A DNA stretch of 64,000 nt, taken from contig JAALKD010000003.1 in assembly GCA_011088215.1 (NCBI GenBank), forward strand, positions 29,763 to 93,762, written 5' to 3'. This stretch comes from Sphingomonadales bacterium (GTDB taxonomy: Bacteria; Pseudomonadota; Alphaproteobacteria; Sphingomonadales; Kordiimonadaceae). A program made the position numbers and the translations under genes. The notes beneath the pieces are model-generated. The model did not search any database. It worked only from the letters and a program-made list of their open reading frames with translations, and was not told where the DNA came from. Position 1 is the first letter of the stretch. Each line of letters begins with the position of its first letter. Shown piece after piece: positions 23,068 through 50,770 of the stretch.

Positions 23068-23976
23068 CTATGTTCCGTATAGTTCTTTGCTATGTTTTTT
23101 CACGAGTGAGAGTAGGTTTTTGGCAGAAAGCTTCATCGGACTGCGTTTACGATAGCAAAAATAGGCTTTTCTCACTTCAATGAAATCATCAACCGGTAAA
23201 AAGGCCAGTTCATCACGGTCAACAAAAACTTGCGACATTTCCGTGCCCAGCACCGCAACTGCATCAGAATGGATTAAGGTGTTAACAGCCAGTGTTGCAG
23301 AAGACATATCAACCAACCGTTCCGGCGGCACAACGCCAGCATCCTGAAAGACTTGTCGAAAACGGGTCCACATGCCGACTTTGCGTGACACGAGCCATAC
23401 GTACTTTGCCAAATCTGCTATCTCAATTTTGGGCATCAATGTAAGTGGATGCCCCGAACGAACCGTAAGCCTGTCAACATCAGCAAATAACTCAATCGCA
23501 TTCAAATCATTGCTCAGCTGCATGGAAAGCGGCGGCGCCACTAACATTAGATCTATCTCGCCGTTCAACAACTTAGGGGACAAAGAGGCAGAGTTGCCAC
23601 TTTCACAATGAAGCGAAATGTCAGGCCAGCGTTCAACAAATTCACTCAGCACCTTTGGTGCCAACCGATTGGCAAACCCGGTTCCAATACCGATAGACAA
23701 GCGCCCTTTTTTGGCTCCGCGCATTGACGCCAAATCACTTTTTGCCAGCGCCATCTCTGCCATGATCAAACGCGCGCGATGCTCAAGCGCTTCTGCAAAC
23801 TCCGTTGGAACCGCGCCAAACCTACCTCTTTCAAAAAGGCGGACCATCAACTCTTTTTCAAGTTTGTTCACGGCGTGAGTTACGGCAGGCTGAGACACGT
23901 TCAGGCTTTCTGCCGCACGCGCAAAGTTACGGTGCTCCATAATTGCCAGAAAATATTGCAGGCGCAGAATATCCAT
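23068..23976 (-). CDS. LysR-family regulator
   Basis: MDILRLQYFLAIMEHRNFARAAESLNVSQPAVTHAVNKLE...LFERG; divergent from an oxidoreductase. Confidence 0.92.
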   Translation of the reverse strand: MDILRLQYFLAIMEHRNFARAAESLNVSQPAVTHAVNKLEKELMVRLFERGRFGAVPTEFAEALEHRARLIMAEMALAKSDLASMRGAKKGRLSIGIGTGFANRLAPKVLSEFVERWPDISLHCESGNSASLSPKLLNGEIDLMLVAPPLSMQLSNDLNAIELFADVDRLTVRSGHPLTLMPKIEIADLAKYVWLVSRKVGMWTRFRQVFQDAGVVPPERLVDMSSATLAVNTLIHSDAVAVLGTEMSQVFVDRDELAFLPVDDFIEVRKAYFCYRKRSPMKLSAKNLLSLVKKHSKELYGT

Positions 23977-24255
23977 CTCATACCTACTTACATAAGGGGT
24001 ACTAATGTATTGATCTCATTTTTTTATTAAATTTGCAATTCCACAGTGACAAAATAAGCCATAATTACACGGCCACTCGACGAAGCCTGCTTGTTATGGT
24101 TGCAGTTGTTATTATGGAAAAACGTTTATTTTTCTGAAGAGGGATTTGACTATTTCACCCCACCATTGATCTCCATCAACGAACTATCTCTATAGTTCGC
24201 TATGTACTGTTAACGGTCACCTATTCTGCCTCGACTTCCACAAAGGGAAGAACCC

Positions 24256-25278
24256 ATGGTTCAAACAGACATGAAACAAATTGTTCTCAAGAACGCTCTT
24301 TCAGCCAAACCAAAAGCCAGTGACTTTACGCCTATTCAATCACAGAAGCCCCAGTGCCCAAAGAGCGGCGTAGTTATTCGCGTCATATACATTTCCGTGG
24401 ACCCGTATGTGGGTTCCAGAATTCGCGGAAAACATATGGGCGAGATCCCCCCAGTGCCAATGGAAGGCAAAATTCCCGGCGCTGCGGTGGGCCAAGTGAT
24501 TGAAACAAACAATCGAGAATTCCATATAGGAGACTACGTATATTCCATGGAGGCTGGTTGGCGGGAATTTGCCGGCCTTAAGGAGGGTACCTTTCACAAA
24601 GTAGATCCGGAGGCGGCACCGTTGTCATCATATGTTGGTGCGCTCGGCATGCCCGGCCTAACAGCCTGGGCGGGTGTTACGCAGTTAACGCAAATACGCA
24701 AAGGCGATGTCTTTTTGGTAGATGCTGCTGCTGGTCCTGTTGCCGGAACAGCGGGACAAATTGCGCGCGCAAAAGGTGCTAGCAAAGTTATTGGAGTCGC
24801 CGGGGGTGAAGAAAAATGCCAGATGGTCGTCGACACATACGGATTTGATGCCTGCCTTAACTATAAGCAGGACGGTTGGCAGGAAGAGCTTAAAGAACAC
24901 GCCCCTGACGGCATCTCGGTATATTTCGAGAATGTTGGTGCGGACATGCTCGCTTTTGCGGTCCAAAATATGCAGCTTTATGGTCGCGCCATCTTATGTG
25001 GTCTCGCCGCCCACTATCATGGAGGGCCACCTGCTACTACGCTGATAGGCCCCATAATCGGCAAGCGCGCGACATTTCACGGGCTGGTTGTTTATGATTT
25101 CTATGACCAGTGGCAAAACTTTCTAAACGAAATGGCGCCTCTGGTTAAATCGGGTCAAATTAATATCTGCGAAGACAGAGTGGACGGTTTGGAGCAGGCG
25201 CCAGTTCTTTTAGAGAAGTTGATGGCGGGGGCAAATGTCGGAAAATGCGTTGTCGTGGTAGCACCAGAGACAGTTTAG
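24256..25278 (+). CDS. NADP-dependent alkenal/ene reductase (MDR, prostaglandin-reductase/CurA-like)
   Basis: YISVDPY, VGALGMPGLTAW, VDAAAGPVAG, YFENVG, GANVGKCVV. Confidence 0.9.
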   Translation: MVQTDMKQIVLKNALSAKPKASDFTPIQSQKPQCPKSGVVIRVIYISVDPYVGSRIRGKHMGEIPPVPMEGKIPGAAVGQVIETNNREFHIGDYVYSMEAGWREFAGLKEGTFHKVDPEAAPLSSYVGALGMPGLTAWAGVTQLTQIRKGDVFLVDAAAGPVAGTAGQIARAKGASKVIGVAGGEEKCQMVVDTYGFDACLNYKQDGWQEELKEHAPDGISVYFENVGADMLAFAVQNMQLYGRAILCGLAAHYHGGPPATTLIGPIIGKRATFHGLVVYDFYDQWQNFLNEMAPLVKSGQINICEDRVDGLEQAPVLLEKLMAGANVGKCVVVVAPETV

Positions 25279-25449: not shown

Positions 25450-28038
25450 TTAGAAGTTGAAAGAAACTTCAACACCGTACCGGCTAAGCGCACCCGGATG
25501 GTTGAATGACCCGCCAAACTCAGGCGCAGGAATTACCTCTTCCAGAAAGCTTTCGTTGGTAATATTTGAACCAAACGCCGTAAGCGCCCAGCCTTCACCG
25601 CGAATACCGACACGTATATCAACTGTATGGTAGGCATCGCGCTGCGCGTTGGAAAAGTCTGCTATACCCAGACCGCCAGCCCCGGCACCAAACCCAAGCT
25701 CAAACAAAGGTTGGAAAATTGTGGCACGCTGGCCTTCCTGTACAGTATGGAACCATGTTGATCCGATAAACTGGGCGTCGACACGACCAAACAAGGTTAG
25801 CGTCTGCGAAATCGGATAGTCAAAATCAGCTCCCACATTTACCGTATAATCCGGCGTATAGGGCGACTTGTTACCAACAGTATCAGGACGCGAGCTATTT
25901 TCCTGAATTTCGCTTTCCGTGAAATTTGCACCGCCGAAAATCCGGAAATGTTCATCCAGATGAACCGTTGCACCAAGTTCACCGCCGTATAGTTCCACTT
26001 CATCAACATTCGAGACAACCCGAAGCAGCCCGAACGTTCCGACGAAGAATTCGAAGAACTGCATGTCCGTTACTTTGGTATAATATGCAGAACCGGAAAG
26101 CTGTAGGCGACCATCAAACAAGTTCGACTTGAAACCAGCTTCAAAAGCACTCGACGTCTCTTCTTCATAGTCATCAGTGATAACCGGCAAATCAACTCCA
26201 AGGTCGTCAGCAAAATTGATTCCAATACCGCCATTAATGAAGCTGTTGTTGAAGATGTTCACTGTTGCGGCACTACCAGAGTTGTTAAAACCGCCGGCTT
26301 TAAAGCCAACTCCCCAACTGGCAAAAACCGTAAGCTCGTCCGACGCGTCCCATGTGAGTGCCACTTTGGGCTCAAACTCAGAGAAAGTGCGTTCCTGGTC
26401 AGGGATCGTCCCGGTTGAATTGATCAGGCTTGAAAGCGCAGGATTGAGCGGGTCATTGAAAACACCGTCAAAATTCAAATCAATAACCGACTGGGTTGCA
26501 CCAAATGGCACAAGGCTCGAAACTTCACGCTTCTCATTATCGTATCGAAGTGCAAGCGATAGTTCGACATCATCGTTTACGTCATATTGGAGCTGGCCAA
26601 ACACGGCAAAAACGGTGCTGTCAAATTGATCGTGGATCAGCGATGCCGTCGCATTTGGCCCACTTGGCTGATATAGGCCGCGAATAGGGTCGGCCCCACC
26701 GTCCCGGTTGAGAGAAACCCCAACCTGACGATCAATATCAAGGAAGTAGGTACCAATCATCCACCGAAGGTCACTGTCATCGTCTGACGCCAACCGCAGT
26801 TCAGCACTGAAGTCTTTCTGGTTGCGCAGCTGTTCCTGGATGCCGTCACACGTACTCGGCGTATATGCGCCAAGGAACGATCCGTTTGGATCAAAGATAA
26901 CACCCGTCGGAGTTTGCCCAATAAATTGCGGTGCCAACAGGGTTTGGCCCGCAGCATTCAGGTCCGCAATTGATTGTTGGCAGGCTGTGTCATTGTTGTA
27001 GAAACCGAAAGCCGCCGACGTACCGTCAGAAATTAAATCATTCTCGATATCGCTGTATAGAACCCAACCAGTTAAGACCATTCCGTCCAGGTCATAATCA
27101 AACTTGGTTGAAAACTCGAACGATTCTTGATCATTGTCCGATGCCACATTCGACTGGAATAAGAAGTCAAAGTCATTCACATCCTGGAATGCCGCTGGTG
27201 TATTGGTCCCTGCGGCAAAAACAGGAAGATTGAAAGTAGAGTTAAATGTGATCGACCCGGCGTCCACTTTGCCGTATCGCATTTTCATATCGACGTTCAG
27301 GTTTTCCGTGCCCTCCCAAACAAGGCGACCATTAATATTGTAGCCTTCGAAACGGTCTACAATTTTGGCGTTATTTTGGAAACTGTTCCGATAGAAACCA
27401 TCGGATTTGCGCCAATCGGCGGCAAGCCGGAAAAACAGCTCATCTTCAACCAAAGGTCCGGAGGCAGACGCCTTAACCAGATAGCTGTTATCCTCCGCAA
27501 AACTTGCGGTCCCGTTAACGGCGACCTCGTTCCCAGGCTTCGTCGTTTTGACGATGATAGCGCCAGCTGCAGCATTGCGACCATAGATCGCCCCTTGCGG
27601 CCCTTTGAAAATTTCGATCTGAGACAGATTAGTATATTCACGGTTAAAGGCTGCTGGGTTCGTATAGAGAACCCCGTCCAGAATATAGGCAAAACTGTTT
27701 TCCGCGTCGCGCGCACCGTTGATACCACGGATGTTAACCTGTGTGTCGCCGACTTCTGCAGCATTCACCATGGTAACACCCGGTGTAAGCGCGATGAAGT
27801 CCTCAGCCCGTTCCACACCCGCATTGCGAATGGTGGAAGCCGAGATCACTGATACAGTGCCCGGCACATCTTTCAGGCTTTCAGACCGTCGTCGTGCAGT
27901 AACGACAATTTCTTCCAGCGAAAACCCTTCATCGTCATCTTGCTGTGCTGTAGTGGGCGCAGAAATAAAGGCCGACGATAAGATGGCGATACTTGATACG
28001 CCCGCAATCGATAGAGCGCTGTGATTCCTTGTGTTCAT
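25450..28038 (-). CDS. TonB-dependent receptor
   Basis: Signal peptide, LEEIVVTARRRSESLKDVPG, IEIFKGPQGAIYGRNAAAGAI, C-terminal RYGVEVSFNF. SD GAGGAGG. Confidence 0.95.
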   Translation of the reverse strand: MNTRNHSALSIAGVSSIAILSSAFISAPTTAQQDDDEGFSLEEIVVTARRRSESLKDVPGTVSVISASTIRNAGVERAEDFIALTPGVTMVNAAEVGDTQVNIRGINGARDAENSFAYILDGVLYTNPAAFNREYTNLSQIEIFKGPQGAIYGRNAAAGAIIVKTTKPGNEVAVNGTASFAEDNSYLVKASASGPLVEDELFFRLAADWRKSDGFYRNSFQNNAKIVDRFEGYNINGRLVWEGTENLNVDMKMRYGKVDAGSITFNSTFNLPVFAAGTNTPAAFQDVNDFDFLFQSNVASDNDQESFEFSTKFDYDLDGMVLTGWVLYSDIENDLISDGTSAAFGFYNNDTACQQSIADLNAAGQTLLAPQFIGQTPTGVIFDPNGSFLGAYTPSTCDGIQEQLRNQKDFSAELRLASDDDSDLRWMIGTYFLDIDRQVGVSLNRDGGADPIRGLYQPSGPNATASLIHDQFDSTVFAVFGQLQYDVNDDVELSLALRYDNEKREVSSLVPFGATQSVIDLNFDGVFNDPLNPALSSLINSTGTIPDQERTFSEFEPKVALTWDASDELTVFASWGVGFKAGGFNNSGSAATVNIFNNSFINGGIGINFADDLGVDLPVITDDYEEETSSAFEAGFKSNLFDGRLQLSGSAYYTKVTDMQFFEFFVGTFGLLRVVSNVDEVELYGGELGATVHLDEHFRIFGGANFTESEIQENSSRPDTVGNKSPYTPDYTVNVGADFDYPISQTLTLFGRVDAQFIGSTWFHTVQEGQRATIFQPLFELGFGAGAGGLGIADFSNAQRDAYHTVDIRVGIRGEGWALTAFGSNITNESFLEEVIPAPEFGGSFNHPGALSRYGVEVSFNF

Positions 28039-28182
28039 AGTCCCCTCCTCATGTTCCCTATTGAGCAATTAATTATGCCCTTCAACTTGCGTTCATTTGT
28101 TACACTCAGGAACTACAAGCCTTGTGAAGTCTATTAATGACTTTATTGTCAGTTAAGGCAGTATATTGCATCTATAGCAATA

Positions 28183-28224
28183 TTGTATACATTTATGATA
28201 ATTATTTTACGACGGAGTATACAA
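28183..28224. promoter_or_regulatory. Two GntR/FadR-type boxes
   Basis: TTGTATACAT at 28183-28192 and GAGTATACAA at 28215-28224; the same motif occurs twice at 30808-30840. Confidence 0.7.
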
Positions 28225-28229
28225 ATCGG

Positions 28230-28883
28230 ATGTCTAAGGCGACAGAAAAAGCATACACCATCATTCGAGAGAACATTCTCAACGGTGGATACCCACCAGG
28301 AACGCACCTGAAAGAAGGTGAGTTAGTGGAAAAATGCGGTGTTAGCAGAACCCCAGTAAGAGACGCCCTGCGTCAATTGGCGACCGACAGATATGTAGTC
28401 ACCCATCGCAATCAAGGTGTATTTGTTAATCAATGGACTGTTGATGACATCAAAGATATCTTTGAATTACGCTCAATTCTGGAATCAATCGTGGTTGAAC
28501 GGGCTGCAATTCACATCTCTAGTGATGACGTTGCCAACCTGAAAGCAATCCACCTGAAAATACAAACTATGCTGGATCAGAACGGCCCTCCGAAGGTTGA
28601 GGTCTTTCTTGTTGAAAACAAAGCGTTTCATCAAATCTTGATCAGCGCGGCAAATAGTAGAACGCTGGCCGACACGTTAGCGCAGATTGTCCAGCCACCT
28701 CTCATTGCCCAAACGGCCCGCCAATACACGCGCCAGGAACTTCAACGCAGCAATGATCATCATCTGGACATTATAAATGCACTTGAAGCAAAGGACGGTG
28801 CGTGGGCAGCATCCGTAATGAAGACACACATCATTTCCGCCCAACGAAAATTTGTGAACACCTATAAAGACGAAGAAACGTAA
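28230..28883 (+). CDS. GntR-family regulator (FadR/FCD subfamily)
   Basis: KAYTIIRENILNG...LKEGELVEKCGVSRTPVRDAL winged helix plus FCD domain (NKAFHQIL, DHHLDII). Start trimmed to ATG 28230. Confidence 0.92.
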   Translation: MSKATEKAYTIIRENILNGGYPPGTHLKEGELVEKCGVSRTPVRDALRQLATDRYVVTHRNQGVFVNQWTVDDIKDIFELRSILESIVVERAAIHISSDDVANLKAIHLKIQTMLDQNGPPKVEVFLVENKAFHQILISAANSRTLADTLAQIVQPPLIAQTARQYTRQELQRSNDHHLDIINALEAKDGAWAASVMKTHIISAQRKFVNTYKDEET

Positions 28884-28888
28884 AGGCT

Positions 28889-29542
28889 TTACGAAGTCCA
28901 GCCGGACCGAGCTCGTGAGACAATATCATCGCTTGTCACGATATCCGCATATTTTGCCCCAAGATCAAAAATATTGGCTTTGTGAACGCCCGCATCGCGG
29001 TCACCGCACGCATCTTCCACCACAAGCGGAATGAAGCCATTTTGAAGCGTGTCAAGCGCGCTTGCACGCACACAACCAGATGTACTAACCCCAGTAATCA
29101 CCACACTGTCACAGCCAAACGCTCTCAGCGTGCTCGCCAATGACGTACCAAAATATGCGCTGGCATATTGCTTTGTAACGACAATTTCGCCGCCTATAGG
29201 CGCAAGGTCTGCAGGCGGTTCTGCGAAGGGGTTGCCTTTGTCAAAACACTTTAGCGCCGCTACCTTCTTGTAAAATAATCCACCATCTGCACCACCGGCA
29301 CCATACTCTACACGAGTATGAATAATCGGTCGGTCGGCAGATCTGAAAGCATCCAGAAGTATTTTAATGTTCCTGTGCTCAGCCTCTATCCCCGCATACA
29401 GGGGCGCAGACGGGTCCAAGTATGCCATACACATATCAATTATCAGCAACGCTGGCGTCTTGCCAAAACCTAATTGGCCACCAAAGCCCGCGGCTTCATA
29501 GTCCTCTTCAAGTGTTGGCTTGGCACCTGTGTCAATCATCAA
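28889..29542 (-). CDS. Isochorismatase-family amidohydrolase (maleamate amidase NicF / N-carbamoylsarcosine amidase-like)
   Basis: Asp-Lys-Cys triad in LIIDM, TKQYASAYFGT and GVSTSGCVRASALD. Confidence 0.88.
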   Translation of the reverse strand: MMIDTGAKPTLEEDYEAAGFGGQLGFGKTPALLIIDMCMAYLDPSAPLYAGIEAEHRNIKILLDAFRSADRPIIHTRVEYGAGGADGGLFYKKVAALKCFDKGNPFAEPPADLAPIGGEIVVTKQYASAYFGTSLASTLRAFGCDSVVITGVSTSGCVRASALDTLQNGFIPLVVEDACGDRDAGVHKANIFDLGAKYADIVTSDDIVSRARSGWTS

Positions 29543-30732
29543 ATAGTTCCAGCGTCTCGCATTTCTTTGAGTTCGGCTTCAGACTTTCCGAGCAGTTCAC
29601 CGTAAACTTCACAGTTATGTTGACCCAGCTCAGTCGGTCCAGCCCAGCGAATTTCCCCCGGTGTCTGTGAAAGTTTGGGAAAAACATTCTGCATGTAAAG
29701 CTTATCATAGGCGGGATGATCAACTTTCACAATCGCATCGCGTGCTTCATATTGAGGGTCGCTTAGCATATCCGGCGCCTTGAATATCTTCCCTGCGGGA
29801 ACACCGTGCTCGTCCATCAACGCCTGCATTTCATCGCTTGTGAACCCTTTGGTCCATTCACTGATCATCGCGTCTAGCTCAACTTGCCGTTCACCCCGTG
29901 CATGGTGGGTCGCATAGTCCGCATCTTCTGCCATTTCTGGCTTCCCCATCGCCGCAGCAAGCCTTTTGAAAACAGTATCCTGATTGGCTGCGATCAATAT
30001 ATCGCCGTCCTTGGTGGGGTATGCGTTTGACGGCGCGACCTTTGGCAAAACAGAGCCCGTGCGCTCACGGACAAAGCCTTGTTCGGTGTATTCCGGAACT
30101 ACCGATTCCATCATCGCCAAAACCGCCTCATAAATCGCAGAGTCGACAACTTGCCCCTCGCCGGTCTGGTCGCGGTGGCGCAAAGCCATCAAAGCACCTA
30201 AACAAGCGTATGTAGCGGCAAGCGAATCGCCAATAGATAGACCAATGCGGCTCGGCGGCGTCGCTGGATCACCTGCCAGATTGCGCATACCACCCATTGC
30301 CTCACCGATCGAGCCGTAGCCTGCCTTTTTTGCATAAGGACCGGTTTGGCCAAACCCGGAAACCCTGATCATAATCAAACGGGGATTTATTTTTTTAAGT
30401 TCTTCATATGAGAGGCCCCATTTTTCCATCGTGCCTGCACGGAAATTTTCCAAGAGGAAGTCGGTTTTCTCAACCATTTCCTTTAAAATATCCTGGCCTT
30501 CTTTTTCCCGCAGATTAAGGGTTACACATTTTTTATTGCGCGAAACAACGGGCCACCAAAGCGGCGCGCTCTGGCCCCATTTTCTCATGGGGTCACCAAT
30601 GCCTGGCGCTTCCACCTTAATCACTTCAACGCCGTGATCTGCCATCAATTGACCGCAAAAGGGACCGGCAATCAATTGGCCCAATTCGATCATCCTAAGG
30701 CCCTTTAAGGCGCCGAAATTAGTGGCACTCAT
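29539..30732 (-). CDS. Class III CoA-transferase (CaiB/BaiF)
   Basis: LIAGPFCG, VIKVE, NKKCVTLNL, ENFRAGTMEKWGL, GFGQTGP, catalytic-Asp motif IGDSLAA. Confidence 0.92.
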   Translation of the reverse strand: MSATNFGALKGLRMIELGQLIAGPFCGQLMADHGVEVIKVEAPGIGDPMRKWGQSAPLWWPVVSRNKKCVTLNLREKEGQDILKEMVEKTDFLLENFRAGTMEKWGLSYEELKKINPRLIMIRVSGFGQTGPYAKKAGYGSIGEAMGGMRNLAGDPATPPSRIGLSIGDSLAATYACLGALMALRHRDQTGEGQVVDSAIYEAVLAMMESVVPEYTEQGFVRERTGSVLPKVAPSNAYPTKDGDILIAANQDTVFKRLAAAMGKPEMAEDADYATHHARGERQVELDAMISEWTKGFTSDEMQALMDEHGVPAGKIFKAPDMLSDPQYEARDAIVKVDHPAYDKLYMQNVFPKLSQTPGEIRWAGPTELGQHNCEVYGELLGKSEAELKEMRDAGTI

Positions 30733-30807
30733 CACTTGTCATCTCCCAATGATGTATCTCAACGATAATGGTGTTTATATTGGCGTATGATTCTTTTAAC
30801 AGATTTT

Positions 30808-30840
30808 TTGTATACAATCGCTTAACTGAATTGTATACAT
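30808..30840. promoter_or_regulatory. Two GntR/FadR-type boxes in a divergent promoter
   Basis: TTGTATACAA (perfect palindrome, 30808-30817) and TTGTATACAT (30831-30840), between the CoA-transferase and lyase genes. Confidence 0.75.
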
Positions 30841-30867
30841 TTTTCATAATTTCAAGTTAGGCAATAG

Positions 30868-31821
30868 ATGACTGTGACAGGTAATTCACAACGAACAACA
30901 AATATTGAAATTCTGGAAGTTGGTCCGCGGGATGGCCTACAGAATGAAAAGGTAGTGTTCTCAACGGCCAACAAGCTTCACATGATCAAGGGCGCTATTG
31001 ATGCGGGTGTCCGGCGCATGGAAGTGGCTAGTTTTGTTCACCCCCAGCGCGTGCCGCAAATGGCAGATGCAGAGGATGTCATCGCTGGCCTCGCCGACCG
31101 AAAAGACATGACCTATATAGGCCTTGTCCTGAATAAACGAGGCTTGTTGCGCGCCTTTGCCACCCGCGAAGGCAACAAACGCGGTGTTGATGAAGTGGGT
31201 TGCGTCGTTGTGGCAACCGATACATTCGCCGAAAAAAACCAGGGCCAAACATCCCTGGAGTCCGTCGATAGTGCCAAAGATATGATCCGCATGGCAAAGG
31301 TCGAGGGCATGTCTGCACAAGCAGCCATTTCAGCTTCTTTCGGATGTCCGTTTGAAGGGCGTGTTGATCAAGACCATGTTGTTGCCATGGCTGAAAGCAT
31401 TGCAGAAGCGGAGCCGCGAGAAATCGCAATTGCAGATACCGTCGGTGTTGCCTCGCCGTTACGTGTCACTGAATTGATTTCAAAAATTAGGGCGCGCCTG
31501 CCCGATATGCCGTTGCGGGCGCATTTCCATAACACCCGCAACACTGGTCTCGCCAATGCTTGGGCCGCTTATGAAGCGGGTGTTGCAACACTTGATGCTT
31601 CAGTCGGCGGTCTTGGTGGTTGTCCATTTGCGCCGAAAGCCACCGGAAATATTGGCACTGAAGACCTGTTGTATCTTCTCGACGAGTCCGATGTGGAAAC
31701 CGGGGTCGAGCTCGAGCAGGTAATTTCGCTAGCAAACTGGGTCGAAGGTCAACTTGGCCGCACACCGCCAGCCATGGTCAGCCAGGCGGGCGGGTTCCCG
31801 AGTAGCAACAAACAATTTTAA
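30868..31821 (+). CDS. HMG-CoA-lyase-family (DRE-TIM) acyl-CoA lyase
   Basis: EVGPRDGLQNE, ADTVG, HFHNTRNTG, GGLGGCPFAPKATGNIGTEDL. Confidence 0.92.
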   Translation: MTVTGNSQRTTNIEILEVGPRDGLQNEKVVFSTANKLHMIKGAIDAGVRRMEVASFVHPQRVPQMADAEDVIAGLADRKDMTYIGLVLNKRGLLRAFATREGNKRGVDEVGCVVVATDTFAEKNQGQTSLESVDSAKDMIRMAKVEGMSAQAAISASFGCPFEGRVDQDHVVAMAESIAEAEPREIAIADTVGVASPLRVTELISKIRARLPDMPLRAHFHNTRNTGLANAWAAYEAGVATLDASVGGLGGCPFAPKATGNIGTEDLLYLLDESDVETGVELEQVISLANWVEGQLGRTPPAMVSQAGGFPSSNKQF

Positions 31822-31865
31822 AGTAAATCATCGGCCGCGAGCCATCGTTAAGGGAGTGGGGTAAA

Positions 31866-33920
31866 ATGTCATATCGATTAGGCGTGGATGTTGGGGGTAC
31901 TTTTACAGACCTTCTATTGATCGACGAGAAAACTGGCGTAACCTGGCGTGACAAAGTGCCAAGTACACCGCATGACCCGTCAGAAGCTGTCATAAGCGGC
32001 ACCAAGGCAATTTGCGATCAGGCCAGCATCAAGCCTTCAGACATTGAACAGTTTCTGCACGGCACCACGGTTGCCACAAACGCGGTTCTGGAAGGTAAAG
32101 GCGCGAAAACTGGCCTGGTTGTCACAGAAGGTTATCGCCAGATTTTGCAAGTTGCCCGGTCATTGGTTCCCGGCGGATTGGCCGCATGGATTACTTGGCC
32201 GAAGCCAGTTCCGCTGGCTGCCCTTGAGTGTACCGTCGAGATCGACGAACGCCTGGACGCAAACGGCGGCGTCGTGAAACCTGTTAACCGCACGCAAGCA
32301 AAGGCCGCACTGGAAAGCCTGAAGTCTGAAGGCATTGAGGCACTGACTATCTGCACCATCAACAGCTACATCAACGGTGTGCACGAAACGGAAATCGCCG
32401 AAATTGCAAAAGAGGTTTTCCCTGACTTGCCAATTACCCTTAGCCATGAAGTACTGCCTGAAATGCAGGAGTATGAGCGTGCACTAACCTCTGTCGCCAA
32501 CTCGCTCGTGCGCCCGATCATGGCAATGTATGTCTCGAACCTACGGGGTGAGCTGCGCAAGCTGGGCATGGAAGGTCGCATTAACCTGCTGCGCTCGGAC
32601 GGTGGCCTTATGGGCTCGGAAAAATCAGAAGGCCATCCCGTAAACCTGCTGATGTCTGGCCCCGCTGGAGGCGTTACAGGCGCACTCTGGTCCGCCCGCA
32701 ACGCCGGTCTCAAAAACATCCTGACACTTGATGTTGGTGGCACGTCCACTGATGTGGCGCTTATCGAAAACGGTGAACCACGTTTAAGGCGTGAAACCAG
32801 CGTTGGCCATTTGACAGTGCGCGCTTCATCACTAGACGTAAAAACAGTCGGTGCTGGCGGCGGCTCGATCGCTCATGTACCGGAACTTACCGGCGCTCTG
32901 CGTGTTGGGCCGGAATCAGCGGGCGCCGTGCCCGGCCCGGCAGCATACGGTAAAGGCGGCGAGGCACCAACCGTGACCGACGCCCATGTCGTACTCGGTA
33001 ACTTGCCCGCTGCTCTGCTGGGCGGTTCCTTCAAGCTGGATGTCGCAGCGGCAACTGCAGCTGTTCAGACAATCGCTGATGCATTGAGCGTAACCATTCA
33101 GGAAGCCGCACAAGGGATCATCGACATTGCCAACGAAAATATGTTTGGTGCATTGCGGCTTGTATCAGTGCAGCAGGGCTATGACCCCCGCGACTTCGCC
33201 TTGATGGGTTTCGGAGGCGCGGGTTCGCTGCACTCCAACGCTGTTGGCAAGCTGATGGGCTCCTACCCTGTTATCGTGCCAGTTAGCCCGGGTGTGCTGT
33301 GTGCAACGGGTGACGCAACCACCCAGATGCGCTACGAGCATGCGCGCTCTTTCAATCGAACTGTCAAACAAACCGACGACGGCGAAGTGGCCAAATGGCT
33401 CGCCAGCATGCGCGAAACGGTTGTTAAAGAACTGGAAGACGAAGGTGTACCACGTGGCAAGCAAATCATCACGTTTGAAGCGGGCGTTCGCTATTCGGGC
33501 CAAGGCTTTGAAGTCGATCTGCCGATCAACATTGAAGACTTCGAAGCCGGCAGCGGCGTGAAAGCTCTGCAAGCCGCTTTCGACGATGAGCACAAGCGCC
33601 TATTCACTTTCAATCTTGATGTTGTTCACGAGATTGTAAACCTGCGCGCTATCGCGCTAGGCAAAGGTGCTGAAATGCCGGCGATCAAAGTTGCACAAGG
33701 TGACGGTGATCCAGCCCAAGCCAAAGTTAGCGACCATACTATGTGGTGTGGCGGCGCTAAACATGATGCGGTGGTCTATGAGCGGTCCAAGCTTGAAAAA
33801 GGCGATCGAATTCCGGGGCCCTGTATTGTCACCGAAATGGACAGCACAGCCGTCATTCTGCCCGACCATGTGGGCGAAGTGGATACCTATGGTAACATTC
33901 TTATCAACCCGACAGCATAA
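31866..33920 (+). CDS. hyuA: Hydantoinase/oxoprolinase subunit A (ATP-dependent cyclic amide hydrolase)
   Basis: GVDVGGTFTD, HGTTVATNA, EYER, SGPAGGV, DVGGTSTD, GAGGGSIA, GPESAGAVPGP, PTVTDA, FGGAG. Confidence 0.93.
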   Translation: MSYRLGVDVGGTFTDLLLIDEKTGVTWRDKVPSTPHDPSEAVISGTKAICDQASIKPSDIEQFLHGTTVATNAVLEGKGAKTGLVVTEGYRQILQVARSLVPGGLAAWITWPKPVPLAALECTVEIDERLDANGGVVKPVNRTQAKAALESLKSEGIEALTICTINSYINGVHETEIAEIAKEVFPDLPITLSHEVLPEMQEYERALTSVANSLVRPIMAMYVSNLRGELRKLGMEGRINLLRSDGGLMGSEKSEGHPVNLLMSGPAGGVTGALWSARNAGLKNILTLDVGGTSTDVALIENGEPRLRRETSVGHLTVRASSLDVKTVGAGGGSIAHVPELTGALRVGPESAGAVPGPAAYGKGGEAPTVTDAHVVLGNLPAALLGGSFKLDVAAATAAVQTIADALSVTIQEAAQGIIDIANENMFGALRLVSVQQGYDPRDFALMGFGGAGSLHSNAVGKLMGSYPVIVPVSPGVLCATGDATTQMRYEHARSFNRTVKQTDDGEVAKWLASMRETVVKELEDEGVPRGKQIITFEAGVRYSGQGFEVDLPINIEDFEAGSGVKALQAAFDDEHKRLFTFNLDVVHEIVNLRAIALGKGAEMPAIKVAQGDGDPAQAKVSDHTMWCGGAKHDAVVYERSKLEKGDRIPGPCIVTEMDSTAVILPDHVGEVDTYGNILINPTA

Positions 33921-33934
33921 GGGGAGGACGACCA

Positions 33935-35794
33935 ATGCCTGCAACAATCATTGAAACAAACACCACCCCATTTGCCAAAACAGCAGTGGATACAATCACC
34001 CTCGACATCATCGAGAATGCGTTGAGAAACGCCCGGGAAGAAATGGACGCAACCCTGTTCCGCACTGCCATGAGCCCGGGCATCCGCGAACAAGGCGATG
34101 CCTTTCCGCTGATCGCAGACCGTGAAGGCCTGATGGTGGTTGGCCAGTTCGGTAGCTTCATCGACGGATTTCTCAACGGTTACGGCGGCGACATTGAAGA
34201 GGGCGACATGATCTGGCTTGCCGACCCCTACAGTTGTGAAGGCGCTGTGTCGCACAATAATGACTGGCTGATAATCCGCCCAATATTTGTCAAAGGCCGA
34301 CTGGTTAGCTGGGCCTGCATGTTCGGCCATATGACTGACATTGGCGGTAAGGTGCCAGGTAGCATGCCCACAGACGCCACCAGTATTTTCGAGGAAGGCG
34401 TACGCATTCCGCCGATAAAATTGTTTAAGAAAGACGTGCTACAGGAAGACATTCTGACACTGGTTCTGCACCAGGTGCGCATGCCGGAATGGTGCCGCGC
34501 AGATTTACTTGCGATTGTCGCCAGCTGCCGAGTGGCGGAAAAGCGCGTGATTGAAATTTGCGAACGCTTCGGCGATGACTTTTTCGCTTCTGCGACCGAC
34601 GAATTATTGGCGCGTAATAAACGAGCGATGGGTCATTTGATCAATACCGCCGTCAGCGAGGACAGGGTTAGTTTCGAAGATTATATCTGTGATGATGGTC
34701 GCGGGTTCGGGCCTTACAAAATCAAATGTACCATGTGGCGTGAGGGTGAAACGGTTGTCCTTGATTTCGATGGAACAGACCCGCAAGCCATTGGTTCAAT
34801 TAACTTTTACCTGAACGAAAACATGCTAAAAATGTTCTTCGGCATTTATATGGTGATGGTTTTCGACCCGCAGGTTATGTTCAACGATGGCTTCTATGAC
34901 CTTGTGGATGTTCGCATCCCGCAGGGCAGCTTGCTCAAACCAAACTTCCCGGCGGCACTATCATGTCGCACCCATGCTTTGGGCCGGATTTTCGACATCC
35001 TCGGCGGCCTGCTTGGCCAGGGACAGCCTGAATTTCTAAATGCAGCTGGCTTCTCATCCAGCCCGCATCTGATGTTCTCGGGATTTGACAAAGACAGCGG
35101 CGAATGGTTCCAACTGTTCCAGATTGGTTTTGGCGGCATCCCCGGCAGACCCTGGGGTGACGGACCAGACGGCCACAGCCTATGGCCCGGCTTTACCAAT
35201 GTGCCCAACGAGTTTCTGGAGCGCTACTTCCCTATGCGCATTACCGATTATACCTCTATCCCGGATAGTGGCGGTGCAGGCCTTAATCGCGGCGGCAACG
35301 GTATCCTGATGACCTATCAGTTCCTCAACAAAGGCACTGTGTCCATCCATGATGATCGCTGGTTCACTTACCCTTGGGGTGTGAATGGCGGTGAGCCGGG
35401 TGCACGGTCTACAAAGATACTACGACGGGCAGACGGCACCGAGGAAGTGTTGGCCTCTAAATGCGACCGAGTTGATGTGTTTGAAGGTGACGAGCTGGAT
35501 TACATCACCTGGGGAGGCGGCGGATGGGGCAACCCGCTAGAGCGCGACGCTGACCTGGTAGCGCTTGAAGTGAAACAAGGCCTGGTGTCAGAAGGCGGCG
35601 CTTTCAACAACTACGGCGTGAAGATAGCGGCGGACGGCAGCGTTGATATTGCAGCTACGGAAGCCAAACGCGCAGAGCTTGCCAAAACACAGGTAACCGG
35701 TGAAATCTTCAACTACGGCCCCGACTTGGCGGCCATTCGCGCCAACTGCAAAGCGGAAACCGGCCTAGATGCACCGATCCAGCCAAGCTGGTAG
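33935..35794 (+). CDS. hyuB: Hydantoinase/oxoprolinase subunit B
   Basis: EEMDATLFRTAMSPGIREQGD, HNND, GHMTDIGG, EEGVRIPP, DFDGTDPQ, PNEFLE, GGGGWGNP. Confidence 0.93.
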   Translation: MPATIIETNTTPFAKTAVDTITLDIIENALRNAREEMDATLFRTAMSPGIREQGDAFPLIADREGLMVVGQFGSFIDGFLNGYGGDIEEGDMIWLADPYSCEGAVSHNNDWLIIRPIFVKGRLVSWACMFGHMTDIGGKVPGSMPTDATSIFEEGVRIPPIKLFKKDVLQEDILTLVLHQVRMPEWCRADLLAIVASCRVAEKRVIEICERFGDDFFASATDELLARNKRAMGHLINTAVSEDRVSFEDYICDDGRGFGPYKIKCTMWREGETVVLDFDGTDPQAIGSINFYLNENMLKMFFGIYMVMVFDPQVMFNDGFYDLVDVRIPQGSLLKPNFPAALSCRTHALGRIFDILGGLLGQGQPEFLNAAGFSSSPHLMFSGFDKDSGEWFQLFQIGFGGIPGRPWGDGPDGHSLWPGFTNVPNEFLERYFPMRITDYTSIPDSGGAGLNRGGNGILMTYQFLNKGTVSIHDDRWFTYPWGVNGGEPGARSTKILRRADGTEEVLASKCDRVDVFEGDELDYITWGGGGWGNPLERDADLVALEVKQGLVSEGGAFNNYGVKIAADGSVDIAATEAKRAELAKTQVTGEIFNYGPDLAAIRANCKAETGLDAPIQPSW

Positions 35795-37245: not shown

Positions 37246-37425
37246 GTTATATATCGGTCTGTCAAAGGTCCATGATACGGTCAACATCATCCACGGTTTC
37301 TTCAAGGCTACTGAAATAGGGAGCAACAATGAACAGGCTCATTGATATGGATCATTGTTTCGGTGCAGCTGTCTTGGTCTGCTACAAGCTCGTTAATCGT
37401 CTCATACAATCAGCGGGGAAAAGCC

Positions 37426-38118
37426 GTGGCAACAGAAGAAACCACTATGTTGCAATCAAGCAAAACAGCGCGTGAGTTTTTCGAGGACGTTATTGCTAAT
37501 CCCGCACGCGCCAAATTTGGTTTTGGTGATAAATTGGCGATCGTGAATGTGGATCCGCAGAAGGCCTATACCCGGCCTGATCTGTTCAAAACCGCCTACA
37601 TCACCGACCCCAAGCAGATGGCTTATATCAACCAAATCTCAAAGTTGGCGCGGGCCAAAAACCTGCCGGTCGCATGGACCCATGTGGCCTATATGGACGA
37701 TGCATCAGACGCCGGGGTGTGGGGCACGCGCACCGACACACCAGATAGCCTGCAAAATATCAAATATGGCTCGGTGCGGCACGAATTTGACGACCGGCTT
37801 GAAATCGATGAATCCTGCGACGCTGTTTACACCAAACGCATGCCTTCGGCGTTTTTTGAAACCCCGCTGGCGTCCTTCCTCAAGTGGCATGCAGTAGACA
37901 CTGTTGTTGTCACCGGTGGTTCCACTTCGGGCTGCGTGCGCGCCACGGCCGTTGATGCCCTGTCGCACGGTTACCGCACCATCGTGCCTGAAGAATGCGT
38001 TGCCGATAAGCATGAAAGCTATCATTTCGCCAACCTTACTGACCTGCAGCTCAAATATGCAGACGTGGTCAAGGTTCAGGATGTGATCAATTGGCTAGAT
38101 GCATACAGTGCCAAGTAG
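37426..38118 (+). CDS. Second isochorismatase-family amidohydrolase (NicF-like)
   Basis: IVNVDPQKAY, TKRMPSAFFET, GGSTSGCVRATAVD. GTG 37426 follows GGGG; ATG 37447 is an alternative start. Confidence 0.88.
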   Translation: MATEETTMLQSSKTAREFFEDVIANPARAKFGFGDKLAIVNVDPQKAYTRPDLFKTAYITDPKQMAYINQISKLARAKNLPVAWTHVAYMDDASDAGVWGTRTDTPDSLQNIKYGSVRHEFDDRLEIDESCDAVYTKRMPSAFFETPLASFLKWHAVDTVVVTGGSTSGCVRATAVDALSHGYRTIVPEECVADKHESYHFANLTDLQLKYADVVKVQDVINWLDAYSAK

Positions 38119-38127
38119 GAGGCTGTG

Positions 38128-39060
38128 ATGAAATACGATCCCGGCCTCTATGATTATTGGCCTTATGAGAACCGCCCCAAGATCACTTGGCCAGGCGGCA
38201 AAAAAGTCGCCTTTTGGGTCGCGCCCAATATAGAGTTTTACGAGCTAGATCCACCTGCAAACCCCCAGCGAAAAAGCTGGCCTCGGCCGCACCCTGACAT
38301 TGTGCCCTACAGCTACCGCGACCACGGCAACCGCGTTGGTCATTGGCGTCTTATGGAAATGATGGACGAATTCGGCGTGCGCGGCTCCATCTCGCTTTCG
38401 GTTGCCATGTGCCAACATCACCCTGAAATTATTGAAGCCTGCGCTGCCCGCAACTGGGAGTTTTTCAGTCACGGTATTTATAACACGCGCTATATTTACG
38501 GTATGGATCGCGCTCAGGAAGAAAGCATCCTGCTCGATTCCATCAAAACGGTTGAGGCCACCACCGGCCAGCGCATTCGAGGCTACCTTGCTCCAGCGCT
38601 TACCCACACCGAAGACACCATCGACCTGCTGGCGGAAAACGGGTTTTGGTACAGCTGCGACCTGTTCCAGGATGACCAGCCACAACCCTTAAAAACCAAG
38701 AATGGCAACAAGCTGGTTTCCATGCCCTATTCGCTTGAGGTCAATGACCACTATGCCTTCAACGTCTACGGTCAAAGCGCCCGCCAATATGCTGACCTAT
38801 TGAAACGGCAGTTTGATACCCTGCTGGAGGAAGGCGCAGACAGCGGCACCGTAATGTGCATTCCGCTGCATGCCTATTTGATTGGCCGCGCCCACCGCAT
38901 TGGGCCGTTCCGCGACGTGCTGGACTATATCACCAGCCACAAAGACGATGTGTGGGTCACCACAGCATCAGAGATCGCAGAGTTTTACATGAACAACTGC
39001 TATGACGAGGCACTGGCCAATATCGCTGCGGCGCAAACACCTGCGAGGGAGGCCTCATAA
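38128..39060 (+). CDS. Polysaccharide-deacetylase-fold hydrolase, PuuE (allantoinase)-like
   Basis: VAPNIEFY, YRDHGNRVGHWRL, FSHG, GYLAP, MPYSLEVND, CIPLHAYLIGRAHR. SD AGGAGG. Confidence 0.82.
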   Translation: MKYDPGLYDYWPYENRPKITWPGGKKVAFWVAPNIEFYELDPPANPQRKSWPRPHPDIVPYSYRDHGNRVGHWRLMEMMDEFGVRGSISLSVAMCQHHPEIIEACAARNWEFFSHGIYNTRYIYGMDRAQEESILLDSIKTVEATTGQRIRGYLAPALTHTEDTIDLLAENGFWYSCDLFQDDQPQPLKTKNGNKLVSMPYSLEVNDHYAFNVYGQSARQYADLLKRQFDTLLEEGADSGTVMCIPLHAYLIGRAHRIGPFRDVLDYITSHKDDVWVTTASEIAEFYMNNCYDEALANIAAAQTPAREAS

Positions 39061-47404: not shown

Positions 47405-47427
47405 CCGTCTGGAGCTACACCAACACT

Positions 47428-49421: not shown

Positions 49422-49423
49422 GT

Positions 49424-49759: not shown

Positions 49760-49767
49760 AGGGCCTC

Positions 49768-50712: not shown

Positions 50713-50770
50713 CACAAACACCTGACGCCTTAACATCAAATTCGAGTTGTCAAAATTATTTAATTGATCT

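What the first reader, a model, noticed from the sequence alone, without database searches (positions are those of the whole stretch)
25450..35794. Self-contained GntR(FCD) module: receptor, amidase, CoA-transferase, lyase and ATP-dependent lactamase under TTGTATACAW boxes
Seen: four boxes (28183, 28215, 30808, 30831), paired in both divergent promoters. Known: HyuAB-family enzymes open stable cyclic amides (N-methylhydantoin, 5-oxoproline, caprolactam) using ATP. Inference: a dedicated sub-pathway that imports a lactam/imide, opens and deamidates it, then cleaves it as a CoA ester.
Basis: partly seen in the sequence, partly recalled or inferred. Interest (0 to 1): 0.6.

Follow-up and report, generated by a model that had tools for sequence, protein, structure and literature searches.

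The report
Orphan ring-amide breakdown gene module
This is a real seven-gene unit with its own switch, shared by hundreds of aquatic bacteria, that most likely takes up a small nitrogen-containing ring compound, opens it with ATP, strips off ammonia and splits the remaining branched acid as a CoA ester; no published pathway matches it and the compound is unknown.

Summary
Observation confirmed. The seven genes are as described: TonB receptor, GntR/FCD regulator, cysteine amidase, family III CoA-transferase, HMG-CoA-lyase-type enzyme and HyuA/HyuB.

- **Boxes.** The exact box TTGTATACAW occurs three times in 64 kb (0.22 expected), only in the module's two divergent promoters. The fourth box (28215) is degenerate but invariant in six Kordiimonas genomes.
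- **Conservation.** In 61 long related loci exactly these seven families recur, in shuffled order. All 57 loci with a GntR gene carry a box; four full-length loci without GntR have none.
- **Ring opener and amidase.** HyuAB groups with N-methylhydantoinase and caprolactamase, not with the carboxylases. The amidase groups with N-carbamoylsarcosine and maleamate amidohydrolases.
- **Lyase.** It cannot be separated from stand-alone HMG-CoA lyases, so HMG-CoA or a close analogue is the likely last intermediate.

New here:
- The regulon is self-contained, but the module is tied to a larger DUF1838/LeuCD/VOC island: 33 of 38 DUF1838-positive genomes carry it.
- The window holds a second, parallel set of ring hydrolase, amidase, CoA-transferase and lyase.

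The scan has met this module on other DNA at least eight times, with the same verdict. The substrate remains unknown.

The parts
25450..28068 (-). TonB-dependent outer-membrane receptor (872-aa ORF; signal-peptide-like N-terminus, likely true start at the ATG 30 nt downstream)
   Evidence: Plug + TonB_dep_Rec_b-barrel domains; below every NCBIfam siderophore/haem/B12 cut-off; orthologue in 50 of 61 related loci
28183..28192 (.). Operator box 1, TTGTATACAT; overlaps the predicted -35 of the receptor promoter and lies 47 nt upstream of the gntR ATG
   Evidence: invariant in six Kordiimonas genomes; a box sits 40-50 nt upstream of gntR in most related loci
28215..28224 (.). Operator box 2, degenerate (GAGTATACAA, 8 of 10); overlaps the gntR Shine-Dalgarno; 32 bp centre-to-centre from box 1
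   Evidence: block GGAGTATACAAA invariant in six genomes. Its conservation could be due to the ribosome-binding site alone.
28230..28883 (+). GntR-family regulator, FCD subfamily (217 aa from ATG 28230; the longer ORF from 28137 is unlikely)
   Evidence: GntR HTH + FCD domains; no NCBIfam equivalog reached; orthologue in 48 of 61 loci; box presence follows this gene
28889..29542 (-). Isochorismatase-family cysteine amidohydrolase; triad D36, K124, C157; conserved GDR motif
   Evidence: Pfam; best solved relatives are N-carbamoylsarcosine amidohydrolase (139.5 bits) and maleamate amidohydrolases NicF/Ami (128, 125 bits); start overlaps the CoA-transferase stop by 4 nt
29539..30735 (-). Family III (CaiB/BaiF) CoA-transferase
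   Evidence: CoA_transf_3 400 bits; best NCBIfam succinate-glutarate CoA-transferase 267 bits, below the 750 cut-off; solved relatives 4ed9 (238 bits) and succinate-hydroxymethylglutarate CoA-transferase (204 bits)
30808..30817 (.). Operator box 3, TTGTATACAA, perfect palindrome; the only copy in the 4.0-Mb genome
   Evidence: conserved between the CoA-transferase and lyase genes in related loci
30831..30840 (.). Operator box 4, TTGTATACAT; lies in the spacer of the predicted lyase-operon promoter (TTAACT-17-CATAAT, 30822-30850); 23 bp centre-to-centre from box 3
30868..31821 (+). HMG-CoA-lyase-type enzyme (317 aa); R21, D22, H219, H221, C252, N261 present
   Evidence: NF004283 290.5 bits, above the 246 cut-off; best solved relatives are HMG-CoA lyases, 1ydo 223 bits; tree interleaves module and stand-alone copies
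31866..33920 (+). HyuA, ATP-binding subunit of an ATP-dependent cyclic-amide hydrolase; motifs DVGGTFTD 8-15, DVGGT 289-293, GAVPGP 353-358
   Evidence: motif definitions from PMC8453981
33935..35794 (+). HyuB, metal-containing hydrolytic subunit; D55, H107, D110, H132; no vicinal Cys-Cys
   Evidence: PMC8453981
35823..35836 (.). Palindromic hairpin between the convergent hyuB and ABM genes; possible two-way terminator
   Evidence: consensus scan only

Best explanation
The module is a catabolic regulon repressed by its own GntR/FCD protein, for a small cyclic imide or ureide (hydantoin-type ring) that probably carries or yields a carboxylate.

Proposed steps:
1. The compound crosses the outer membrane through the dedicated TonB-dependent receptor. 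The inner-membrane carrier is not encoded in the module.
2. HyuA phosphorylates the ring amide with ATP, and HyuB hydrolyses it at its metal site.
3. The isochorismatase-family cysteine amidase hydrolyses the resulting terminal amide or carbamoyl group and releases ammonia.
4. The family III CoA-transferase loads the resulting dicarboxylate onto CoA.
5. The HMG-CoA-lyase-type enzyme cleaves the 3-hydroxy-3-alkyl-acyl-CoA into acetyl-CoA and a keto acid. The CoA ester is most likely HMG-CoA or a close analogue. If so, the ring would be a beta-substituted glutarimide or glutaconimide.

Regulation: the GntR dimer binds the TTGTATACAA palindromes that overlap the promoters of all four transcription units, its own included. 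It would be released by the substrate or by an acid intermediate.

Shown here: gene identities, intact catalytic motifs, conserved linkage, conserved operator.
Inferred: order of steps, substrate class, repression, inducer.
For: Linkage:
- Exactly seven families recur in 61 long loci: HyuB 57, HyuA 55, CoAT 51, TBDR 50, GntR 48, lyase 47, amidase 37. No other family occurs in more than 8. Gene order is shuffled between Kordiimonadaceae, Emcibacter, sphingomonads, Caulobacteraceae and a Marinomonas MAG.

Operator:
- Exact boxes lie only in the two promoters.
- All 57 loci with a GntR gene have a box, 48 of them directly upstream of the lyase/hyuA operon. Four full-length loci without GntR have none.

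Enzymes:
- HyuAB is closest to N-methylhydantoinase and caprolactamase, with intact ATP and metal motifs.
- The amidase is closest to N-carbamoylsarcosine and maleamate amidohydrolases, with an intact triad.
- The CoA-transferase is nearest to dicarboxylate enzymes: succinate-glutarate and succinate-HMG.
- The lyase passes the NCBIfam HMG-CoA-lyase cut-off. It has the catalytic residues and interleaves with stand-alone copies in a tree.
- Five complete module-positive Kordiimonas genomes have no other HMG-CoA-lyase-type gene apart from a distant paralogue. One of them has an MCC/IVD leucine cluster without a lyase gene.
- CoA-transferase/lyase pairs exist without HyuAB in four sphingomonad genomes.
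Against: - No activity, inducer or phenotype is known. No paper was found.
- No inner-membrane transporter and no hydratase are conserved in the module.
- A natural beta-hydroxy-beta-methylglutarimide is not known to me.
- Module-negative sphingomonads have MccB but no HMG-CoA-lyase-type gene. The lyase is therefore not needed there for leucine breakdown and may be pathway-specific rather than a plain HMG-CoA lyase.
- An allantoin/hydantoin-racemase-like gene sits in the receptor operon of 8 loci. This points to a ring with a stereocentre, which the symmetric HMG imide lacks.
- Imide opening does not require ATP thermodynamically.
Confidence: 0.6

Rival explanations
1. Five-membered imide route. 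The substrate is a substituted maleimide or succinimide, for example the tetrapyrrole oxidation products methylethylmaleimide or hematinic acid. HyuAB opens it to a maleamate-type half-amide and the NicF-like amidase gives a dialkylmaleate. A hydratase encoded elsewhere (LeuCD-like or enoyl-CoA hydratase) adds water. The CoA-transferase and lyase then split the product into a 2-oxoacid and an acyl-CoA.
For: - The amidase is almost as close to maleamate amidohydrolases as to N-carbamoylsarcosine amidase.
- A LeuCD-like hydratase with DUF1838 sits beside the module in L038 and L091 and 12 kb away in the window.
- DUF1838 genomes are almost a subset of module genomes, 33 of 38.
- An enoyl-CoA hydratase lies in 5 loci.
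Against: - No hydratase is conserved in the module.
- The lyase groups with HMG-CoA lyases, whose substrates have an unsubstituted C2.
- The LeuCD operon has its own neighbouring CoA-transferase/lyase pair and its own HutC-type operator.
- No paper on bacterial maleimide catabolism was found.
Confidence: 0.2
2. Plain creatinine branch. HyuAB is N-methylhydantoin amidohydrolase and the amidase is N-carbamoylsarcosine amidase, giving sarcosine. The CoA-transferase and lyase are unrelated passengers.
For: The best solved relatives of all three proteins are exactly these two enzymes.
Against: - The CoA-transferase and lyase are kept in 51 and 47 of 61 loci, and the same operator sits between them.
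- No creatinine deaminase, creatininase or sarcosine oxidase recurs in any locus.
- Similarity to the solved enzymes is moderate (473 and 222 bits for HyuA and HyuB, 139.5 bits for the amidase), too low for same-function assignment.
Confidence: 0.1
3. Simple lactam route (5-oxoproline, pyrrolidone, valerolactam or caprolactam type). HyuAB yields an amino acid, and the amidase acts on a separate amide group.
For: The best NCBIfam model for HyuA/HyuB is caprolactamase (504 and 231 bits). Sources name homologues 5-oxoprolinase or N-methylhydantoinase.
Against: - Both scores are far below the 1000-bit equivalog cut-off.
- The caprolactamase-specific vicinal disulfide is absent.
- No aminotransferase or deaminase is present in the module to deal with the amino acid product.
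- The genome has a separate fused oxoprolinase-like gene.
Confidence: 0.07
4. HyuAB is an ATP-dependent ketone carboxylase (acetone or acetophenone carboxylase type).
For: Same superfamily; the metal tetrad is shared by carboxylases and hydrolases.
Against: - Carboxylase subunits score 219-261 bits (HyuA) and 66-127 bits (HyuB), against 374-473 and 203-222 for the hydrolases.
- There is no gamma-subunit ORF: the gaps between genes are 44 and 14 nt.
- An amidase is conserved in the module.
Confidence: 0.03

Closest known systems
Creatinine / N-methylhydantoin branch: ATP-dependent N-methylhydantoin amidohydrolase (HyuA/HyuB) followed by N-carbamoylsarcosine amidohydrolase
   Same: The same two enzyme families in the same logical order: ATP-driven opening of a five-membered ring amide, then cysteine-hydrolase removal of the terminal nitrogen. 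Best solved relatives of HyuA, HyuB and the amidase.
   Different: No creatinine deaminase or sarcosine-oxidising enzyme. It adds a dicarboxylate-type CoA-transferase and an HMG-CoA-lyase-type enzyme under the same operator, plus a TonB receptor. Similarity to the solved enzymes is only moderate.
Cyclic-imide catabolism of Blastobacter/Alcaligenes (imidase plus half-amidase) and the NicF step of nicotinate degradation (recalled from knowledge, not retrieved here)
   Same: Ring imide to half-amide to dicarboxylate plus ammonia. NicF belongs to the same family as the module's amidase.
   Different: Known imidases are ATP-independent metal amidohydrolases of another fold. The known routes feed succinate or maleate directly into central metabolism without a CoA-transferase/lyase pair.
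Caprolactamase CapAB of Pseudomonas jessenii and OplBA valerolactam hydrolase of P. putida (PMC8453981, PMC6838509)
   Same: Two-subunit ATP-dependent ring hydrolase with the same ATP motifs and metal tetrad. Best NCBIfam models.
   Different: Scores of 504 and 231 bits against cut-offs of 1000. No vicinal disulfide. Different downstream enzymes.
Succinate-hydroxymethylglutarate CoA-transferase (SUGCT) plus HMG-CoA lyase
   Same: Same two families. The lyase passes the HMG-CoA-lyase subfamily cut-off, and the CoA-transferase is close to SUGCT (204 bits).
   Different: The CoA-transferase is far below the succinate-glutarate equivalog cut-off (267 against 750). Here the pair is coupled to ring opening and deamidation.
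FadR/FCD-type GntR repressors with palindromic t.GT-N-AC.a operators
   Same: GntR HTH plus FCD domain. A palindromic operator with GT...AC arms overlaps the promoters, and the regulator gene lies in the regulon.
   Different: No equivalog model is reached. Effector unknown.

Membership tests
Hydantoinase/oxoprolinase A+B family (ATP-dependent cyclic-amide hydrolases and ketone carboxylases) | Hydant_A_N + Hydantoinase_A (+ Hydant_A_C) in one subunit and Hydantoinase_B in the other | tested here: met
   Pfam 166, 285 and 45.5 bits for HyuA; 479 bits for HyuB
Hydantoinase/oxoprolinase A+B family (ATP-dependent cyclic-amide hydrolases and ketone carboxylases) | ATP motifs DxGGTxxD, DxGGT and GxxPGP in the A subunit; Asp-His-Asp-His metal tetrad in the B subunit (PMC8453981) | tested here: met
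   DVGGTFTD 8-15, DVGGT 289-293, GAVPGP 353-358; H107, D110 and H132 by motif, D55 by position
Caprolactamase CapA/CapB | NCBIfam equivalog score of at least 1000 bits; vicinal Cys-Cys in the substrate pocket | tested here: not met
   504 and 231 bits; no CC in HyuB
Acetone / acetophenone carboxylase | Closest similarity to carboxylase subunits, and a third (gamma) or additional subunit gene | tested here: not met
   Carboxylases score well below the hydrolases; NCBIfam ApcC/ApcA/ApcD 271, 193 and 127 bits against cut-offs of 1250-1500; no extra ORF
N-methylhydantoin amidohydrolase pathway (creatinine branch) | HyuAB together with N-carbamoylsarcosine amidase, and genes that make N-methylhydantoin and consume sarcosine | tested here: inconclusive
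   The first two are present as best relatives. Creatinine deaminase and sarcosine oxidase are not among the recurrent neighbours. The rest of the genome was not searched for them.
Isochorismatase-like cysteine hydrolases | Asp-Lys-Cys catalytic triad in the isochorismatase fold | tested here: met
   D36, K124 and C157 align with conserved columns of N-carbamoylsarcosine amidohydrolase and NicF; Pfam 108 bits
HMG-CoA lyase (NF004283 subfamily) | Score above the curated cut-off; Arg-Asp, His-x-His, Cys and Asn catalytic and metal residues | tested here: met
   290.5 bits against 246; R21, D22, H219, H221, C252 and N261 seen in the alignment to 1ydo. Substrate specificity cannot be tested here.
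Family III CoA-transferases | CoA_transf_3 domain over the full length | tested here: met
   400 bits, residues 10-374. No equivalog is reached: succinate-glutarate 267 of 750. The catalytic Asp was not checked.
GntR family, FCD subfamily | N-terminal GntR winged helix plus C-terminal FCD domain | tested here: met
   61.5 and 79.6 bits
GntR family, FCD subfamily | Binding of the regulator to the palindromic operator, and release by an effector | not testable with these tools
   Only indirect: box position in the promoters, conservation and co-occurrence with the gene
TonB-dependent siderophore / haem / B12 receptors | Score above a curated subfamily or equivalog cut-off | tested here: not met
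   The best is the siderophore subfamily at 130 of 223.5 bits, in the plug region only. It is a TonB-dependent receptor of unknown ligand.

The most novel reading that the evidence does not exclude
The module is the terminal, ammonia-releasing branch of a much larger unrecognised pathway. That pathway takes apart a complex nitrogen heterocycle, for example pigment-derived pyrrole-ring fragments such as maleimides or hematinic acid from bilins, chlorophyll or haem.

- Kordiimonas, Emcibacter and some sphingomonads carry the whole island: receptors, VOC enzymes, enone reductases, DUF1838-LeuCD, and a second set of ring hydrolase, amidase, CoA-transferase and lyase.
- Most sphingomonads keep only the module, to scavenge the free ring fragment from water.
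- HyuAB would then be the first ATP-dependent imidase with a physiological imide substrate.
Probability: 0.13. Interest if true: 0.85.

Novelty: new variant of a known kind. Interest (0 to 1): 0.55.

Why it matters
- **Spread.** About 37% of sampled genomes of this alphaproteobacterial order carry the HyuB orthologue that marks the module, in marine and freshwater lineages. More than 7,500 protein clusters match HyuB at E <= 1e-100 (an unsplit count that may include paralogues). A dedicated receptor and regulator imply a specific dissolved organic nitrogen compound that is common in water and whose turnover is not described.
- **What identification would give.** It would add a pathway to carbon and nitrogen cycling maps. 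It would give a physiological role to a large branch of the HyuAB family, whose members are wanted as mild lactam and imide hydrolases. It would also supply a regulator-operator pair usable as a biosensor.
- **The island.** The link to the DUF1838/LeuCD/VOC island gives a handle on several families of unknown function.

Tried and rejected
- **Literature.** Seven searches found no paper describing the cluster. They covered the four-enzyme combination, caprolactamase/oxoprolinase, N-methylhydantoinase, hematinic acid/maleimide, DUF1838, cyclic imide/half-amidase, and HMG with CoA-transferase.
- **Other regulon members.** I searched the whole genome for the box. The four extra sites are intragenic or beside ORFs with no family. 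No inner-membrane carrier was found this way.
- **Transporter clue.** The TRAP binding protein next to the module in L038 has no close solved relative with a telling ligand.
- **Leucine argument.** I tried to argue that the lyase must be the cell's leucine-pathway HMG-CoA lyase. This holds in Kordiimonas. It is undercut in sphingomonads, where module-negative genomes have MccB but no such lyase.
- **Racemase-like gene.** The Asp/Glu-racemase-type gene seen in 8 loci was tested as a possible maleate isomerase. Its only solved relatives are allantoin/hydantoin racemases, and weakly.
- **Neighbours of lyase pairs without HyuAB.** These gave nothing useful.
- **Names.** Sources give only generic names.
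- **Shared regulation with the island.** Rejected: the island's HutC-type operator is absent from the module.

Full report
**1. Observation**

The region holds seven ORFs with the stated families:
- a TonB-dependent receptor, 25450-28068, minus strand;
- a GntR regulator with an FCD domain, 28230-28883, plus;
- an isochorismatase-family hydrolase, 28889-29542, minus;
- a family III CoA-transferase, 29539-30735, minus, whose stop overlaps the hydrolase start by 4 nt;
- an HMGL-like lyase, 30868-31821, plus;
- HyuA, 31866-33920, plus;
- HyuB, 33935-35794, plus. The gaps before HyuA and HyuB are 44 and 14 nt.

This gives four transcription units that leave two divergent intergenic regions.

The boxes:
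- The exact box TTGTATACAW is at 28183, 30808 (a perfect palindrome) and 30831.
- With no mismatch the window has four strand-hits against 0.22 expected, and none of 100 shuffles reaches that.
- The core TGTATACA occurs nowhere else in 64 kb.
- At one mismatch the count is not above chance.
- The fourth box, at 28215, is GAGTATACAA. It is degenerate, but the block GGAGTATACAAA is invariant in six Kordiimonas genomes and overlaps the gntR ribosome-binding site.
- Box 28183 overlaps a predicted -35 of the receptor promoter. Box 30831 lies in the spacer of a predicted promoter of the lyase operon (consensus matches only).
- Box centres are 32 and 23 bp apart, roughly three and two helical turns.

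**2. Conservation**

Orthologues of HyuB (70-97% identical) occur patchily:
- in 9 of 31 sampled genomes of the genus;
- in 75 of 201 genomes of the order;
- in about 600 or more places in the species-level genome collection: Kordiimonadaceae, Emcibacter, Erythrobacter, Altererythrobacter, Sphingorhabdus, Novosphingobium, Sandarakinorhabdus, a Caulobacteraceae MAG, Robiginitomaculum and a Marinomonas MAG.

I called ORFs in the 61 loci longer than 14 kb and clustered them. Exactly seven families recur: HyuB in 57, HyuA 55, CoA-transferase 51, receptor 50, GntR 48, lyase 47 and amidase 37. The next family is in 8 loci. Gene order differs between lineages. Retention through rearrangement is the strongest computational sign of one function. 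No inner-membrane transporter and no hydratase is conserved.

**3. Operator**

The same palindrome is found in nearly all related loci. It sits 40-50 nt upstream of gntR, and between the CoA-transferase and the lyase or directly upstream of the lyase/hyuA operon.
- All 57 loci with a GntR gene carry a box. In 48 it lies within 350 bp upstream of the lyase operon. In the other nine it lies upstream of a co-directional gntR.
- Four full-length loci that lack GntR (Emcibacter, Robiginitomaculum and one Novosphingobium) have no box. A fifth (L038) has only a one-mismatch site whose core is broken.
- In the window's own 4.0-Mb genome the perfect palindrome is unique. The four further TTGTATACAT sites are intragenic or beside ORFs with no family. 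The regulon is the module.
- The island's HutC-type operator ATTGNTATANCAAT occurs at 46423, 50771 and 58022 only. The two regulons are separate.

**4. The nitrogen end**

- HyuA and HyuB score best against a solved N-methylhydantoinase (473 and 222 bits). Next come caprolactamase (374 and 203), acetophenone carboxylase (261 and 127) and acetone carboxylase (219 and 67).
- NCBIfam's caprolactamase models are the best, but far below cut-off (504 and 231 against 1000).
- The ATP motifs and the metal tetrad defined in PMC8453981 are intact. The caprolactamase-specific vicinal disulfide is absent.
- There is no room for a gamma subunit.
- The amidase has the Asp36-Lys124-Cys157 triad. It is closest to N-carbamoylsarcosine amidohydrolase (139.5 bits) and the maleamate amidohydrolases NicF and Ami (128 and 125 bits).
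- Both of those enzymes remove a terminal -CONH2 from an acid. In the two alignments printed (N-carbamoylsarcosine amidohydrolase 26st and NicF 3ot4), the query and both targets share a GDR motif.
- HyuAB plus this amidase therefore reproduces the logic of the creatinine branch, or of imide to half-amide to diacid.

**5. The carbon end**

- The CoA-transferase is nearest to enzymes that act on dicarboxylates: succinate-glutarate and mesaconate models and the solved succinate-hydroxymethylglutarate transferase.
- The lyase passes the curated HMG-CoA-lyase cut-off (290.5 against 246). It has the catalytic Arg-Asp, His-x-His, Cys and Asn, and is closest to solved HMG-CoA lyases.
- A tree of 40 homologues interleaves module-borne and stand-alone copies: nine label changes, six of them forced by well-supported branches. 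It is not an old specialised paralogue.
- In the genus, module-negative genomes have one stand-alone copy (61-70% identical, one at 78%). Five complete module-positive genomes have only the module copy plus a distant paralogue.
- One of these five (G012) has a leucine cluster without a lyase gene. Its methylcrotonyl-CoA carboxylase beta subunit scores 893 bits to 3u9r. An ORF of alpha-subunit size (684 aa, not searched) lies beside it. Its isovaleryl-CoA dehydrogenase scores 675 bits to 4o5m. This argues for real HMG-CoA lyase activity.
- The argument is weaker in the sphingomonad family. There the lyase type is found in 20 of 20 HyuB-positive and only 5 of 55 HyuB-negative genomes. Five module-negative genomes have MccB but no such lyase.
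- Four of the five exceptions are CoA-transferase/lyase pairs without HyuAB. The pair is therefore a unit of its own for a free diacid.
- I put about even odds on HMG-CoA itself. If that is right and no other enzyme intervenes, the only ring that gives HMG by two hydrolyses is 3-hydroxy-3-methylglutarimide, or its dehydrated 3-methylglutaconimide form with a housekeeping hydratase. I know of no natural source for either.

**6. Link to the island**

In Emcibacter, another Kordiimonadaceae MAG and Robiginitomaculum, the four enzymes lack the receptor and GntR. They are interleaved instead with:
- a TRAP transporter and an MFS carrier;
- VOC proteins;
- DUF1838 and a LeuCD-like hydratase;
- a CN-hydrolase and an FAD oxidase;
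- CurA-like enone reductases;
- PuuE-like and AllB-like ring hydrolases;
- a Crp-type regulator.

These are the families of the window's own right-hand island.

Across 201 genomes of the order, DUF1838 is found in 38, and 33 of those carry the HyuB orthologue. The base rate is 75 of 201, and 42 of 163 among DUF1838-negative genomes. The two are often within 4-45 kb of each other. Relatives are not independent, so this is a pattern, not a statistic.

The window also holds a second, parallel set:
- an amidase paralogue and two PuuE-like hydrolases, 37342-39983;
- DUF1838-LeuCD, 46475-49421;
- a second lyase, 49768-50787, and a second CoA-transferase, 50876-52069, again divergent;
- a second enone reductase.

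The paralogues are 31-36% identical to the module's. The same chemical scheme thus appears twice. This supports the scheme, and it suggests that the module handles one of two related fragments of a larger substrate. Sphingomonads that carry only the module with a receptor would scavenge the free fragment.

**7. Other hints on the substrate**

- Eight loci carry an allantoin/hydantoin-racemase-like gene (70 bits to 3qvk) and two SnoaL-like genes in the receptor operon.
- Five loci carry an enoyl-CoA hydratase.
- The TRAP system and the FCD regulator both usually deal with carboxylates (established knowledge).

Together these favour an acidic or acid-yielding ring, possibly chiral and possibly unsaturated. 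They do not identify it.

**8. Comparison and novelty**

The parts are ordinary families. The combination, with its dedicated receptor and regulator, matches no published pathway that I could find. Sources give only generic names.

The scan has met the same module on other DNA at least eight times, with the same verdict. This instance adds:
- the operator footprint across orders;
- the lyase analysis;
- the tie to the DUF1838 island;
- the duplicated scheme in one window.

I file it as a new variant of known cyclic-amide catabolism. Interest is moderate. Interest would be high if the substrate turns out to be a major aquatic nitrogen compound or a pigment fragment.

Noticed in passing
window 37342-39983, 46475-53121: A second, parallel set of the same scheme lies in the neighbouring island. 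It has an isochorismatase-family paralogue and two PuuE-like (allantoinase-type) hydrolases behind a LysR gene. It also has DUF1838-LeuC-LeuD, a second HMG-CoA-lyase-type gene (278 bits, above cut-off) divergent from a second family III CoA-transferase, and a second CurA-like enone reductase. The paralogues are 31-36% identical to the module's.
   Followed up: partly
own genome, contig C62 7628-8587 (L104): A third HMG-CoA-lyase-type gene, 79% identical to the module's, stands alone behind a Nudix/NrtR-like regulator gene (L104 6809-7477). G115 has a similar copy behind a 222-aa ORF of the same size and position (not family-searched).
   Followed up: partly
window 28163-28179: An inverted repeat ATTG-N9-CAAT directly abuts box 1 and is conserved in six Kordiimonas genomes. 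It does not fit the island's HutC operator spacing. It may be a promoter element or a second binding site.
   Followed up: partly
window 23068-25278: A LysR gene and a divergent CurA-like NADPH enone reductase (271 bits to the curcumin reductase model, below cut-off) flank the receptor. CurA-like genes recur next to the module in Emcibacter-type loci and in G039.
   Followed up: partly
L033, L047, L053, L058, L065, L067, L095, L098: In eight related loci an Asp/Glu/hydantoin-racemase-family gene lies in the receptor operon beside gntR. In seven of them one or two SnoaL-like genes lie there too. The best solved relatives of the racemase-family gene are allantoin racemases, weakly.
   Followed up: partly
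L121-L124 (G126, G133, G180, G185): Sphingomonad genomes without HyuAB keep an orthologous CoA-transferase/lyase pair, in G133 beside a TonB receptor. This looks like a sub-module for the free acid.
   Followed up: partly
own genome, contig C110 4138-5811 and 7973-9625; contig C93 2609-4135: Three further HyuB paralogues (27-31% identical). Two lie just upstream of the window on the same contig. One is in a long open frame of about 1226 aa, the size of a fused oxoprolinase.
   Followed up: no
G030, G038, G059, G066, G087: Five complete sphingomonad genomes have a methylcrotonyl-CoA carboxylase beta orthologue (68-69% identical to the Kordiimonas one). They have no HMG-CoA-lyase-type gene; their strongest HMGL-like hits sit in long open frames of isopropylmalate-synthase size. 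How they finish leucine breakdown is unclear.
   Followed up: no
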